Origin: Calothrix sp. MO_167.B42
Lineage (GTDB): Bacteria > Cyanobacteriota > Cyanobacteriia > Cyanobacteriales > Nostocaceae
Reading direction: 5' to 3'
NCBI GenBank assembly: GCA_030065255.1
Contig: JASJCX010000017.1
Coordinates: forward strand, 1 to 47,777
DNA: 47,777 bases
Shown one piece after another: positions 44,563 to 46,600 of the stretch. The position numbers were made by a program, and so were the translations under genes. The first letter of the stretch is position 1; the number at the start of each line of letters is the position of its first letter. A model generated the notes under the pieces. The model made no database searches. It saw nothing but the letters and a program-made list of their open reading frames with translations, and was not told where the DNA came from.

Positions 44563-45026
44563 GTTATGTGCGTCTGCCCAATAAATTTAAGTCTTCTGTG
44601 CAAAATTGCAACTAAATTCAAGCCAGTCTATGGTGATAAACGCAGTTTTCATTTTTATAACAGAACTTGAGAACTTCTGCCTTGCATTGCCATGATATAT
44701 GAGAATAATTGTCAAGAAACTCTAAATTTTAACGTGGGCAAGGTTTTAGATATTAAATTATTCTCTAGCAAGTTATAGGAAGAATACGTTTTCTATAAGC
44801 CAAGTTACTTTGTATTTATTATGAAAAGTATATTATCTTACTTTTAGCCTTTAAAGGTAGATACTCAATATGTATTACTTATGATTACTATAGGCAAAGA
44901 CTGTTGATATGTCTGTACATTATGTTTTGGCATATTTATGTGGTGAGAAACAACTATATTTACTCTAGCAAGAGTTTTATAGAAATAAAATGAGAATTTT
45001 TTCATCTGTCTTCCCTCCCGGAGACT

Positions 45027-45054
45027 CCCGCTATATTGGTACTCCAATTAGCGG
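45027..45054. repeat. Subterminal hairpin, copy 1 (cccgctatattggtactccaattagcgg)
   Basis: Stem ccgcta.attgg / ccaattagcgg with loop tactc. It is flanked by ccctccc ... gggaggg, which could form an outer stem. One mismatch to copy 2. Confidence 0.85.
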
Positions 45055-45077
45055 CGAGAGGAAGGGAGGGGCAAGGT

Positions 45078-46361
45078 TTACGCTGCATACGAGTAACCAT
45101 CCTTTTTGTGAATAGGTGTACAATATTTGTGACTTATTCCTTGAATTAGTCCATTTTTAGTTGAAATATTGAAACTGCCAGTAGTTCTAACGGCAACACG
45201 TCCAGCGTATTCCCCTACTTTTTTACCAGTGGTGACAATCGCTTTGACGATATCTCCAGTTTGAAAGCCTTTTACAAACTTGAATATAGGAACATAGCGA
45301 GACGGGAAGCCATATTTATCTGTGCGGCACATTTGGCGTGTGCCATGACCGTTTGCTGTAATTAACAATGGCTTAACTCCTTTAATGTTTAAAATTGGCG
45401 TTGATTTGCCAATACAAGCAGCATCAATCCAATGTTGTTTCTCTAGATTTTGCCGATTACGGTTAAACTTTGTTAAACCACCAGAACCAGTTTCTACAGG
45501 CAAACAAGTTGCCTTTAAAGCATCTAGTAATGCAAATCTAGTAGTATTTACTGCTGCTGCATCTGCCAATGGTCTTTTTGCTTGTTTCAAAATGTTCTCT
45601 AATTTAGAAGAGTCTTTTTTAAGAAAATCTTTAATATCCTTGGTTCCTTTTTTAGTGTTGCATTTGCAGCAACTTAAGGTGAGATTTGTAATCGAATTGG
45701 AGCCTCCTTTAGCTCTTGGGTGAATGTGTTCTACTTGTAGAGGAACGTCTTTTATTCCACAATAAGCACACTGTCTGCCCCATTTTTCAAGTAAATATTC
45801 TCTAGTCTCGTAACCCGCAAGCGTGCCCTGCTGATATTCTTTACCGAGTATGTTAGGATTACGCATTAATTGCATATCAAAGCGTATTAATTCTTGGCTA
45901 ATCGCTTTAATTGGTGCAAGCTTCCGCAATCTTTCCACCCAAGTCTTAATATTATCAACCCGACTTTGCAAGCTTGGAGCTAACCATCCCTGTGGGCGAG
46001 TTCTATTGAGAAATCGAGGCTTGCGATATCTAGTTTTGCGATTTCTTCTACTACGTCTTAGCTGCCTTCTGGAAGTCAAAGCATCTCGAATTGCAAAACC
46101 TCTATGTTTTAACTCAGCAGCGAATACAACCTCACCAGTAGAATCGTTGACTAACGCCATCCCTGTACATTTTGCACCAGGGTCTATTTTTAATCTCAAA
46201 GGTGATACGGGAGATTCTGGACGTATTTCTTTGAGTATTAAAGTGAAAGGAAAACGTCTGAAAACTGCTGCTTTTTTGTTTCGTAATAACTGCCGAGCTT
46301 GTGCTGGATGAATTGGGGTAGCTGGTCTTTTTTGTGAATCAATTACAAATACTTTGGACAT
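45078..46361 (-). CDS. iscB: IscB RNA-guided nuclease (OMEGA system; PLMP, split RuvC, bridge helix, HNH and TAM-interaction region)
   Basis: PLMP-like N-terminus VFVIDSQKRPATPIHPAQARQLLRNKKA. RuvC-I LKIDPGAKCTGMALV. Arg-rich bridge RRQLRRSRRNRKTRYRKPRF. RuvC-II ISQELIRFD. HNH CAYCG...LQVEHIHPRAKGGSNSITNLTLSCCKCNTKKG. RuvC-III HWIDAACIG. The start is the ATG at 46361, preceded by AAGGAGGG at 46367..46374. The track start at 46397 is less likely. Confidence 0.9.
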   Translation of the reverse strand: MSKVFVIDSQKRPATPIHPAQARQLLRNKKAAVFRRFPFTLILKEIRPESPVSPLRLKIDPGAKCTGMALVNDSTGEVVFAAELKHRGFAIRDALTSRRQLRRSRRNRKTRYRKPRFLNRTRPQGWLAPSLQSRVDNIKTWVERLRKLAPIKAISQELIRFDMQLMRNPNILGKEYQQGTLAGYETREYLLEKWGRQCAYCGIKDVPLQVEHIHPRAKGGSNSITNLTLSCCKCNTKKGTKDIKDFLKKDSSKLENILKQAKRPLADAAAVNTTRFALLDALKATCLPVETGSGGLTKFNRNRQNLEKQHWIDAACIGKSTPILNIKGVKPLLITANGHGTRQMCRTDKYGFPSRYVPIFKFVKGFQTGDIVKAIVTTGKKVGEYAGRVAVRTTGSFNISTKNGLIQGISHKYCTPIHKKDGYSYAA

Positions 46362-46600
46362 AAAGTCCCTCCTTTCGGGTAATGTTAGCTTCGTCAATAT
46401 TTCTAAAGCTTGTTAGACCTAACACACTGCCTCCCAAATGGCTGTTTAATGCTAGATGACATGGCTACAAACTAGCTACGCATTCGTAGGTGTCGTGACT
46501 AAAGAAACGTAGTACTCAAGGTACTTAGACTGGTCAACTAGGGCTTTTCAAGCCCCCGCTACATTGGTACTCCAATTAGCGGTGGGTTGTTGACTTACGC
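46362..46600 (-). ncRNA. Putative omega-RNA (IscB guide RNA) scaffold, with a guide expected at its 5' end (high-coordinate end)
   Basis: About 230 nt of non-coding sequence lie directly upstream of iscB, which is where IscB omega-RNAs are encoded. Stem-loops seen on the minus strand are ccgctaattggagtaccaatgtagcgg, then gggcttgaaaagccc, with further self-complementary stretches. The ends are not defined. Confidence 0.5.
46555..46582. repeat. Subterminal hairpin, copy 2 (cccgctacattggtactccaattagcgg)
   Basis: Matches 45027..45054 with one mismatch. It contains the stop codon (46576..46578) of the response regulator ORF. Confidence 0.85.

What the first reader, a model, noticed from the sequence alone, without database searches (positions are those of the whole stretch)
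45010..46600. Compact IscB (OMEGA) element with a putative omega-RNA and matching end hairpins but no transposase
The 427-aa ORF has every IscB hallmark: a PLMP-like N-terminus, IDPG RuvC-I, an arginine bridge helix, the HNH motif CAYCG...VEHI...CCKCN, and HWIDAA RuvC-III. All catalytic residues appear intact. Upstream, where omega-RNAs are encoded, about 230 nt of structured non-coding sequence run into a strong SD and the ATG. Two 28-nt hairpins that differ at one position bracket the unit 1528 bp apart, as expected for IS200/IS605 ends. No tnpA is present, so mobility would need a transposase in trans. This is a potentially active, very small RNA-guided nuclease from a cyanobacterium.
Basis: partly seen in the sequence, partly recalled or inferred. 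Interest (0 to 1): 0.7.

Follow-up and report, generated by a model that had tools for sequence, protein, structure and literature searches.

The report
Intact IscB guide-RNA transposon, cyanobacterial
This is a complete but ordinary member of a well-known family of small jumping genes that carry an RNA-guided DNA cutter (IscB, the ancestor of Cas9); it sits exactly on the stop codon of a cyanobacterial regulator gene and lacks its own transposase.

Summary
The 427-aa ORF (45078..46361, minus strand) is an IscB. It scores 450 bits against the NCBIfam guided_IscB equivalog (cut-off 175) and 1.9e-70 against Pfam RRXRR plus HNH. Its best PDB matches are all IscB, and every catalytic residue aligns. 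Directly upstream, 46594..46379 matches the whole Rfam HEARO model, the IscB omega-RNA, at 137.8 bits.

An orthologous locus without the insert fixes the element at 45006..46594 (1589 bp). It has no target duplication and lies immediately 5' of ATGA, whose TGA was the response regulator's stop codon.

The two 28-nt hairpins are real subterminal end hairpins. They differ only at the bulged base and show strong covariation across relatives. Their type changes in step at both ends across three subfamilies. The upstream hairpin lies inside the omega-RNA rather than outside it.

No tnpA occurs in the window. There are 249 relatives in cyanobacterial genomes, so this is a new member of a known kind (ISC2/HEARO/OMEGA).

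One side finding may be new. In relatives, the flanking ATG is the host gene's start codon in about half the insertions, and the element end carries a Shine-Dalgarno-like GGAGG.

The parts
45002..45005 (-). Target/TAM: ATGA on the iscB strand, TCAT on the + strand (read with one more base, TTCAT). It flanks the element and is not part of it. Its TGA was the ancestral stop codon of the response-regulator gene.
   Evidence: Empty-site alignment with L082. In relatives, 73 of 80 ends scored by script are followed by RTGA (56 ATGA, 17 GTGA). The N|ATGA target of cyanobacterial ISC elements is described in PMC4810608. The GstIscB TAM is TTCAT.
45006..46594 (-). The whole non-autonomous IscB element (ISC2-type IS200/IS605-superfamily transposon), 1589 bp, with no target-site duplication.
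   Evidence: Breakpoints against the insert-free ortholog L082. Sharp onset of family homology at 46594. Family homology ends just before RTGA. The solo derivative L084 has the same two termini.
45006..45077 (-). Distal end, 3' of iscB; this is the transposase-defined left end when read on the + strand. It contains an outer stem CCCTCCC/GGGAGGG, an inner hairpin, and a Shine-Dalgarno-like GGGAGGG (45013-45019) 7 nt before the flanking ATG.
   Evidence: ssDNA folds with z -4.5 to -4.6. Conserved in close relatives L001, L025, L032, L019, L043, L055 and L062.
45027..45054 (-). Distal subterminal hairpin, CCGCTAATTGG-AGTA-CCAAT(A)TAGCGGG. On the + strand it lies 21 nt inside the cleavage site.
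   Evidence: Covariation of this hairpin class: 97.1% of cells paired, 10 of 15 pairs with compensatory changes, 0 of 500 shuffles reaching the observed score.
45078..46361 (-). iscB coding sequence, 427 aa plus stop. Domains in order: PLMP-like (PATP), RuvC-I (D60), bridge helix, RuvC-II (E157), HNH (H212), RuvC-III (H310, D313), then a C-terminal WED/TAM-interacting region.
   Evidence: The catalytic residues of OgeuIscB are taken from PMC9640706. dN/dS is 0.07-0.11 against four relatives.
46362..46378 (-). Junction between the HEARO model's end and the ATG, holding the iscB Shine-Dalgarno AAGGAGGG. It is probably still part of the omega-RNA 3' region.
   Evidence: Sequence read directly. 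Meers et al. note that RF02033 lacks downstream structural elements.
46379..46594 (-). Omega-RNA scaffold (Rfam HEARO RF02033, model positions 1-211 of 211).
   Evidence: 137.8 bits against a gathering score of 83, E 1.1e-28. The same full-length hit lies upstream of iscB in 18 of 18 complete relatives tested.
46555..46582 (-). Omega-RNA-side subterminal hairpin. It is the first hairpin of HEARO, with a 16-nt expansion relative to the model, and corresponds to the transposase-defined right-end hairpin. It is followed by 12 nt to the end on the + strand. It differs from the distal copy only at the bulged base (G versus A). The regulator's new stop codon TAA (46576-46578) lies within it.
46595..46610 (-). 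Predicted guide segment of the omega-RNA, 5'-GAUAUCGUCUGCGUAA-3'. It is host DNA, the last codons of the response-regulator gene, immediately 5' of the scaffold.
   Evidence: Inferred from its position relative to HEARO model position 1 and from the known IscB architecture, in which the guide is encoded outside the transposon boundary (Meers). It is unique in the window. The 16-nt length is by analogy with OgeuIscB, from my own knowledge.
46576..47283 (-). Host OmpR-family response regulator, in the same orientation as iscB. Its C-terminus was changed by the insertion from ...GYRLR(K/R)* to ...GYRLRKSTTHR* (235 aa versus 230 aa).
   Evidence: Pfam. Ortholog P0001 is 230 aa, 93% identical, and ends GYRLRR. 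L082 synteny.

Best explanation
The region is a complete, single-copy, non-autonomous transposon of the IS200/IS605 superfamily (ISC2 / IscB-omega-RNA / HEARO type) in a Nostocales cyanobacterium.

Shown:
- A 1589-bp element (45006..46594) carries an omega-RNA scaffold followed by an intact iscB gene.
- It is bounded by two near-identical subterminal imperfect hairpins.
- It is inserted seamlessly 5' of ATGA, at the stop codon of a response-regulator gene and in the same orientation as that gene.

Inferred from the family's established biology:
- A Y1 TnpA transposase encoded elsewhere in the genome binds the two hairpins on single-stranded DNA. It excises and inserts the element next to TCAT, which is ATGA on the iscB strand.
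- Transcription reading through from the histidine-kinase/response-regulator operon produces an omega-RNA. Its 5' guide (about 16 nt, GAUAUCGUCUGCGUAA) is host sequence.
- IscB plus this RNA recognises the empty donor joint, GATATCGTCTGCGTAA followed by the TAM ATGA. That joint exists only after excision.
- IscB cuts both strands with its HNH and RuvC domains, and recombination with a sister chromosome puts the element back.
- The occupied site is not cut, because the guide match is followed there by GTCA, not ATGA.
For: Protein identity:
- NCBIfam guided_IscB equivalog at 450.3 bits against a 175 cut-off.
- Pfam RRXRR at 1.9e-70 plus HNH.
- PDB hits are IscB: TbaIscB 1.6e-39 and OgeuIscB 6e-26. 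D60, E157, H212, H310 and D313 align to OgeuIscB D61, E193, H247, H340 and D343.
- dN/dS of 0.07-0.11.

RNA:
- Full-length HEARO hit at 137.8 bits.
- The same arrangement occurs in 18 of 18 relatives.

Boundaries and mobility:
- The insert-free ortholog L082 reads ...CGTTTGCGTAG|ATGAAAAAATTC. The window reads ...CGTCTGCGTAA|[element]|ATGAAAAAATTC.
- The family-wide 5' terminus is GTCAAC or GTAAAC.
- An RTGA flank was found in 73 of 80 relatives by script.
- Relatives at 82-91% identity sit in unrelated genomic contexts.

Hairpins as transposase sites:
- 97.1% of cells paired, 10 of 15 pairs with compensatory changes, and a conserved 1-nt bulge.
- The hairpin class is matched at both ends in three subfamilies.
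- On the + strand the geometry is TCAT|21 nt-hairpin ... hairpin-12 nt|.

Literature:
- ISC elements with N|ATGA targets, 5'-GT termini and Y1-recognised subterminal hairpins (PMC4810608).
- HEARO bounded by the right end, the TAM 5' of the left end, GstIscB TAM TTCAT, tnpA near only about 1.5% of iscB genes, a same-orientation bias, and donor-joint cleavage (preprint 10.1101/2023.03.14.532601).
Against: - Nothing here shows expression of the RNA or protein, or activity of either.
- No TnpA partner was identified. It is absent from the 47.8-kb window and could not be searched for in the source genome, which is only a metagenome scaffold.
- Only one copy of this exact element is on record, so current mobility is unproven.
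- The TAM is inferred from insertion sites, not measured.
- The N-terminal motif is PATP rather than PLMP.
- Promoter-like sites near the guide are at chance level.
- The single-sequence fold z-score is weak, at -1.70.
Confidence: 0.88

Rival explanations
1. A stranded relic. The element is structurally intact but no longer mobile or functional in this genome. No cognate TnpA remains, and IscB and the omega-RNA persist only because too little time has passed for decay.
For: - Single copy on record.
- No tnpA in the window.
- The insertion is not very recent, because the flanks differ by 9-21% from the empty ortholog.
- Decayed derivatives exist in relatives: the L084 solo remnant, L032 interrupted by a group II intron, and the truncated distal end in Nostoc PCC 7120.
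Against: - The ORF is full length with all catalytic residues.
- The HEARO match covers the whole model.
- The two hairpins keep identical stems and differ only at the bulge.
- Family-wide dN/dS is about 0.1.
- Absence of tnpA next to iscB is the norm, with tnpA nearby in only about 1.5% of cases.
Confidence: 0.25
2. A domesticated IscB. The nuclease and its RNA have been recruited for a host function, for example regulating the neighbouring two-component system or acting in defence, rather than for transposon maintenance.
For: - It sits inside a histidine kinase / regulator / regulator gene cluster.
- It alters the regulator's C-terminus.
- It is under purifying selection.
Against: - The ortholog L082 has the same cluster without the element.
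- Both transposon ends and the TAM are intact.
- The guide is simply the flanking host sequence, as in any insertion.
- Relatives sit in unrelated contexts.
Confidence: 0.03
3. Not an IscB element at all. On this reading it is a free-standing HNH homing endonuclease of another family, with hairpins that are generic cyanobacterial repeats.
For: HNH Pfam families alone also match. Cyanobacterial genomes are rich in short palindromic repeats (general knowledge).
Against: - The IscB equivalog model is passed by a wide margin.
- RRXRR (RuvC plus bridge helix) covers residues 4-179.
- A full-length HEARO hit is present.
- The hairpin occurs only twice in 47.8 kb.
- In relatives the hairpin always lies at the same distance from the ends.
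Confidence: 0.01

Closest known systems
ISC2 transposons (IscB-encoding, IS200/IS605 superfamily; Kapitonov et al. 2016, PMC4810608), in particular the cyanobacterial ISC elements with the N|ATGA target
   Same: - About 1.6 kb, encoding only IscB with an HNH domain.
- 5' terminus GTCA...
- Insertion immediately 5' of ATGA without target duplication.
- Subterminal imperfect hairpins.
- Non-autonomous.
   Different: - A different, unnamed family, at most 89-91% amino-acid identity to any relative found.
- The two hairpins are nearly identical 28-mers.
- The omega-RNA-side hairpin is a 16-nt expansion of the first HEARO hairpin.
HEARO RNA (Rfam RF02033), which is the IscB omega-RNA of the OMEGA systems
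   Same: - Full-length match to the model (1-211).
- Located directly upstream of iscB and ending 17 nt before the ATG.
- The scaffold starts at the transposon end, with the guide encoded in the flank.
   Different: A 16-nt insertion in the first hairpin relative to the model consensus. The RNA ends are not determined experimentally.
OgeuIscB (PDB 7XHT, 7UTN, 8CSZ) and GstIscB (Meers et al.)
   Same: - Same domain order and the same catalytic residues.
- The predicted TAM on the transposase strand (TTCAT) equals the wild-type TAM reported for GstIscB.
- Same orientation as the upstream host gene.
   Different: - 427 aa against 496 aa for OgeuIscB, with only distant sequence similarity (E 6e-26).
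- PATP instead of PLMP.
- OgeuIscB's TAM is NWRRNA (PMC12660989 abstract).
- No activity data exist for this protein.
IS608 / ISDra2 (canonical IS200/IS605 elements with TnpA and TnpB)
   Same: - Single-strand 'peel-and-paste' logic.
- A 4-5 nt target 5' of the left end.
- Hairpins about 20 nt inside the left end and about 10 nt inside the right end.
- A bulged base in the stem.
- No target duplication.
   Different: - No tnpA.
- The cargo is IscB, encoded antisense to the transposase-defined top strand, rather than TnpB.
- The guide RNA is read from outside the right end into the element.

Membership tests
IscB (RNA-guided endonuclease, OMEGA) | Passes a curated IscB family model | tested here: met
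   NCBIfam NF040563 guided_IscB (equivalog) at 450.3 bits against a cut-off of 175, profile positions 1-314 of 314. Pfam RRXRR at 236.7 bits against 25.
IscB (RNA-guided endonuclease, OMEGA) | Split RuvC domain with an inserted arginine-rich bridge helix and HNH domain, with catalytic residues intact | tested here: met
   The alignment to IscB chains in the PDB places D60, E157, H212, H310 and D313 on OgeuIscB D61, E193, H247, H340 and D343. HNH Pfam match at residues 198-240.
IscB (RNA-guided endonuclease, OMEGA) | N-terminal PLMP domain | tested here: inconclusive
   The N-terminus aligns to the PLMP domain of the OgeuIscB-like chain and of TbaIscB, but the motif itself reads PATP (residues 13-16).
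IscB (RNA-guided endonuclease, OMEGA) | Cognate omega-RNA encoded immediately upstream on the same strand | tested here: met
   HEARO RF02033 at 137.8 bits, full model, 46594..46379. Also found in 18 of 18 relatives.
IscB (RNA-guided endonuclease, OMEGA) | RNA-guided, TAM-dependent double-strand DNA cleavage | not testable with these tools
   This needs a TAM-library or plasmid-interference assay.
IS200/IS605 superfamily (ISC2 group) | Seamless insertion next to a specific 4-5 nt target, with no target-site duplication and no terminal inverted repeats | tested here: met
   Empty site in L082 compared with the window. RTGA flank found in 73 of 80 relatives by script.
IS200/IS605 superfamily (ISC2 group) | Subterminal imperfect hairpins at both ends | tested here: met
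   Covariation. End-to-end matching of hairpin class across subfamilies.
IS200/IS605 superfamily (ISC2 group) | Mobilised by a Y1 (HUH) TnpA transposase | not testable with these tools
   There is no tnpA in the window.
HEARO RNA (RF02033) | Score at or above the Rfam gathering threshold over the whole model | tested here: met
   137.8 bits against 83, model positions 1-211 of 211, not truncated.

The most novel reading that the evidence does not exclude
This cyanobacterial IscB family may be built to land exactly on host start codons and hand translation back to the host gene. The N|RTGA target is the host gene's start codon in about half of the relatives. The last 20 nt of the element carry a Shine-Dalgarno-like GGAGG or GAGG 4-9 nt before that RTG, in all end subfamilies. 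On this reading the element slips between a host promoter/5'UTR and its ORF. It borrows the promoter to make its guide RNA and IscB, and re-supplies a ribosome-binding site so that the downstream gene is not silenced. The window copy uses the same ATGA as a stop-codon overlap instead. I found no mention of this in Kapitonov 2016 or the Meers 2023 preprint. The original HEARO paper (Nature 2009) could not be read here and may already note it.
Probability: 0.4. Interest if true: 0.55.

Novelty: new member of a known kind. Interest (0 to 1): 0.3.

Why it matters
For the biology of this window it matters little. IscB/HEARO elements are common in Nostocales: 249 relatives were found in one scan, and PGAP already names them.

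Three points have practical value.
- This is a clean reference copy: an intact 427-aa nuclease, a full omega-RNA, both ends, an exact empty site, and a predicted guide and TAM (ATGA). It could go straight into a cleavage assay as a compact editing candidate with a short TAM.
- It is a worked example in which an insertion rewrites the last codons of a host regulator without destroying it.
- The family data raise a testable idea: that these elements target start codons and bring their own ribosome-binding site. If so, that would explain how guide RNAs that must be transcribed from outside the element get expressed without harming the host.

Tried and rejected
- I looked for more copies of this exact element. 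The exact protein is on one metagenome scaffold only. The exact hairpin in metagenome contigs gave one hit, a 61-nt solo remnant rather than a full copy or a TnpA/TnpB partner.
- I looked for tnpA. The ORFs of 100 aa or more in the window that were scanned with Pfam gave none. All 80 related loci have iscB-only elements, judged from how tightly their ends are spaced.
- The promoter/terminator scan around the element was at chance level and was not used.
- The single-sequence fold of the omega-RNA gave z -1.70. It is not informative alone, so I relied on the covariance model instead.
- I considered that the distal 76 nt, which start with GTAAAC, might be a nested mini-element. I rejected this as a chance hexamer that includes the stop codon.
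- I considered the 46-codon ORF that starts at the flanking ATG (45005..44865). It is open in the ortholog too, but by my manual count on the alignment about 11 of 46 residues differ while the DNA is about 88% identical. It is probably not a gene.
- The Weinberg 2009 HEARO paper could not be obtained. The 2010 paper does not mention HEARO.
- Structure prediction was not run, because sequence-level membership was already decisive.
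Full report
1. What is in the sequence

The minus strand of 45078..46361 holds a 427-aa ORF starting at ATG, or 439 aa from an upstream TTG. A 28-nt sequence occurs twice, at 45027-45054 and 46555-46582. The copies are 1528 bp apart and 27/28 identical. They are the only matches in the 47.8-kb window even with three mismatches allowed, and chance predicts none. Each copy folds into an 11-bp hairpin with a 4-nt loop (AGTA) and one bulged base. 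As single-stranded DNA the folds have z-scores of -4.4 to -4.8. The single difference between the copies, G versus A, is the bulged base, so the stems are identical.

2. The protein is an IscB

- Pfam gives RRXRR (1.9e-70, residues 4-179, full profile) and HNH.
- The NCBIfam equivalog model 'RNA-guided endonuclease IscB' (NF040563) scores 450 bits against a cut-off of 175.
- A search of PDB sequences returns only IscB, IsrB and small Cas9 chains. The top hits are TbaIscB at 1.6e-39 and OgeuIscB at 6e-26.
- In those alignments D60, E157, H212, H310 and D313 fall on the OgeuIscB catalytic residues D61, E193, H247, H340 and D343. The residue list comes from PMC9640706.
- The N-terminal motif is PATP rather than PLMP.
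- Against four relatives, dN/dS is 0.07-0.11, so the protein family is under purifying selection.

3. The upstream RNA is the omega-RNA

A scan of the whole window against Rfam gives a single hit: HEARO (RF02033). It scores 137.8 bits against a gathering score of 83 and covers model positions 1-211 of 211, at 46594..46379 on the minus strand. HEARO is the RNA later shown to be the IscB guide RNA. The hit ends 17 nt before the ATG, and that gap holds the AAGGAGGG ribosome-binding site.

The upstream 28-nt hairpin is the first hairpin of the HEARO structure, with a 16-nt expansion relative to the consensus. It therefore lies inside the RNA, not outside it. The minimum-free-energy fold alone is unremarkable at z -1.70, so the covariance-model match is the evidence. 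The same full-length HEARO hit sits upstream of iscB in 18 of 18 complete relatives tested.

4. Exact boundaries and the empty site

A scan of one genome per species found 249 relatives. The best 80 are all cyanobacterial records except two contigs of one MAG labelled Acetobacteraceae. Most are Nostocales, and identity reaches 89-91%. In 24 of these relatives, homology to the window begins at exactly the same base, window 46594. The terminus there is GTCAAC or GTAAAC, and the sequence upstream is unrelated. At the other end, the conserved sequence stops just before RTGA.

The response regulator upstream has a 93%-identical ortholog of 230 aa (P0001). That ortholog lies on a contig with the same kinase - regulator - regulator - OprB order but no iscB (L082). 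Aligning the two loci gives:

- L082: ...GGTTATCGTTTGCGTAG|ATGAAAAAATTCTC
- window: ...GGATATCGTCTGCGTAA|[GTCAAC ... GACAG]|ATGAAAAAATTCTC

The element is therefore 45006..46594 (1589 bp). It was inserted without any duplication, immediately 5' of ATGA (45002..45005). The TGA of that ATGA was the regulator's stop codon. The insertion replaced ...GYRLR(K/R)* with ...GYRLRKSTTHR*.

5. The hairpins are the transposon's end hairpins

I aligned 25 hairpins taken from both ends of the window element and 16 relatives. In that alignment 97.1% of cells are paired and 10 of 15 pairs show compensatory changes. The bulge is conserved, and no shuffle or slid register comes close.

Across three end subfamilies, the hairpin type at the omega-RNA end matches the type at the distal end:

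- CCACC...GAGTAC...GGTGG
- CTCAGGGCTAAAGCC.CTGAG
- CCCCA.G..TAAA..C.GGGG

This is what is expected if one transposase reads both ends.

Read on the window's + strand, the layout is TCAT|21 nt-hairpin ... hairpin-12 nt|. By my recollection of the family, this is the IS608-like geometry. It also agrees with two literature statements. [quoted passage not shown] Kapitonov et al. describe cyanobacterial ISC elements with 5'-GT termini, N|ATGA targets and Y1-recognised subterminal hairpins.

A metagenome contig (L084) carries a 61-nt derivative: GTCAACAACCCA, one hairpin, then GAGTCTCCGGGAGGGAAGACAG, followed by ATGA. These are the two termini of this very element fused at the repeat. This confirms both boundaries independently.

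6. How it most likely works

The anatomy above is shown. The following steps are inferred from established IS200/IS605 and OMEGA biology.

- The element has no tnpA. None was found among the ORFs of 100 aa or more in the window that were scanned with Pfam. This is the rule for iscB, where tnpA lies nearby in only about 1.5% of cases. A Y1 transposase must therefore act in trans.
- The scaffold starts at the element's end, so the guide is host sequence: GAUAUCGUCUGCGUAA (46610..46595), which is unique in the window. It must be transcribed from outside the element.
- The element lies in the same orientation as the kinase/regulator operon, matching the orientation bias reported for IscB elements.
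- After excision, the donor joint would read guide-match + ATGA. This is a target followed by the family's TAM, and on the other strand it reads TTCAT, the wild-type TAM of GstIscB.
- IscB would cut that joint, and recombination would restore the element (Meers et al.).
- In the occupied site the guide match is followed by GTCA, so it should be spared.
- None of this activity was tested here.

7. Comparison and novelty

The element meets every family feature that could be tested: the IscB, HEARO and ISC2/IS200-IS605 criteria are listed in the membership table. Relatives are already annotated as iscB in model strains such as Nostoc sp. PCC 7120. It is a new member of a known kind and is ordinary for a specialist. 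Its merit is completeness: an intact nuclease, a full RNA, both ends, an exact empty site, and a predicted guide and TAM.

8. A side finding in the relatives

- In 33 of 72 relatives the flanking RTG opens an ORF of at least 100 codons. The background at RTGA sites in the same flanks is 14.5% (p = 2e-10).
- In reconstructed empty sites those ORFs extend only 0-22 codons upstream.
- Pfam domains begin at profile position 1 within 3-10 residues of that Met.
- In a Nostoc sp. C052 plasmid, the annotated CDS starts exactly at the terminal ATG.
- 55 of 73 element ends carry GGAG or GAGG 4-9 nt before that RTG. The figure is 5% at background RTGA sites and 19.5% at host gene starts. The window copy has GGGAGGG 7 nt before the ATG.
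- The elements are related to one another, so these counts are not independent events. However, the motif persists across end subfamilies that are otherwise dissimilar.
- One reading is that the family inserts between a host 5'UTR and its start codon and supplies a replacement ribosome-binding site.
- Selection for transcribed, non-disruptive sites could produce part of the start-codon enrichment without any special targeting.
- I found no mention of this in the two papers read.

Noticed in passing
Related loci L001-L080 (for example L036, L033, L025, L001) and L086 3171: In about half of the related IscB elements, the RTG of the flanking RTGA is the start codon of a host gene. The element's last 20 nt carry a GGAGG or GAGG motif 4-9 nt upstream of it. 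This suggests the element inserts at start codons and provides a replacement Shine-Dalgarno site.
   Followed up: partly
L084 151-215 (minus strand; metagenome contig JAAUYD010029149.1): A 61-nt solo derivative consisting of the two termini of the window's element joined at a single copy of the 28-nt hairpin, followed by ATGA. It looks like a deletion between the two direct repeats, or a PATE-like mini-element.
   Followed up: partly
L032 42-119 (Calothrix sp. MO_167.B12 contig): The closest relative's iscB (91% identical over residues 38-427) is preceded directly by the 3' end (domain V/VI) of a group II intron. That copy therefore seems to be interrupted at about codon 37.
   Followed up: no
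Related loci such as L013, L017, L004, L029, L006 (about 80 nt after the iscB stop codon): Many relatives carry an extra hairpin module of about 80 nt (AATTGCTCAACTGTCCC...GGGACGTTTCACAATT) between the stop codon and the distal end module. The window's element lacks it. Its function is unknown.
   Followed up: no
window 80..27001 (+) and 27064..41916: A large non-ribosomal peptide synthetase cluster. It has three NRPS ORFs of 1097, 3164 and 3776 aa, plus a PLP-dependent enzyme and an ornithine-cyclodeaminase-like enzyme (an SbnA/SbnB-like pair). These are followed by an epimerase, several glycosyltransferases, an MFS transporter and an ABC transporter. It is probably a glycosylated lipopeptide pathway.
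   Followed up: no
window 47295..47322: Two tandem 14-nt repeats (TTATCTGTTATCCG / TTGTCTATTATCCG) lie just upstream of the response-regulator start codon (47283). They could be a binding site for the OmpR-type regulator.
   Followed up: no
L082 3039-3884 compared with window 47284..47417: The insert-free orthologous locus carries an ADP-ribosylglycohydrolase gene between the histidine kinase and the response regulator. That gene is absent from the window, so this operon differs by two separate insertions or deletions between the two genomes.
   Followed up: no
window 44865..45005 (minus strand): A 46-codon ORF starts at the flanking ATG (MKKFSFYFYK...). It is also open in the ortholog L082, but about a quarter of its residues differ, so it is probably not a real gene.
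   Followed up: partly
L025 6294-7267: A CRISPR array (Rfam CRISPR-DR5, 14 repeats) lies about 2 kb downstream of a related IscB element. This is probably coincidental.
   Followed up: no
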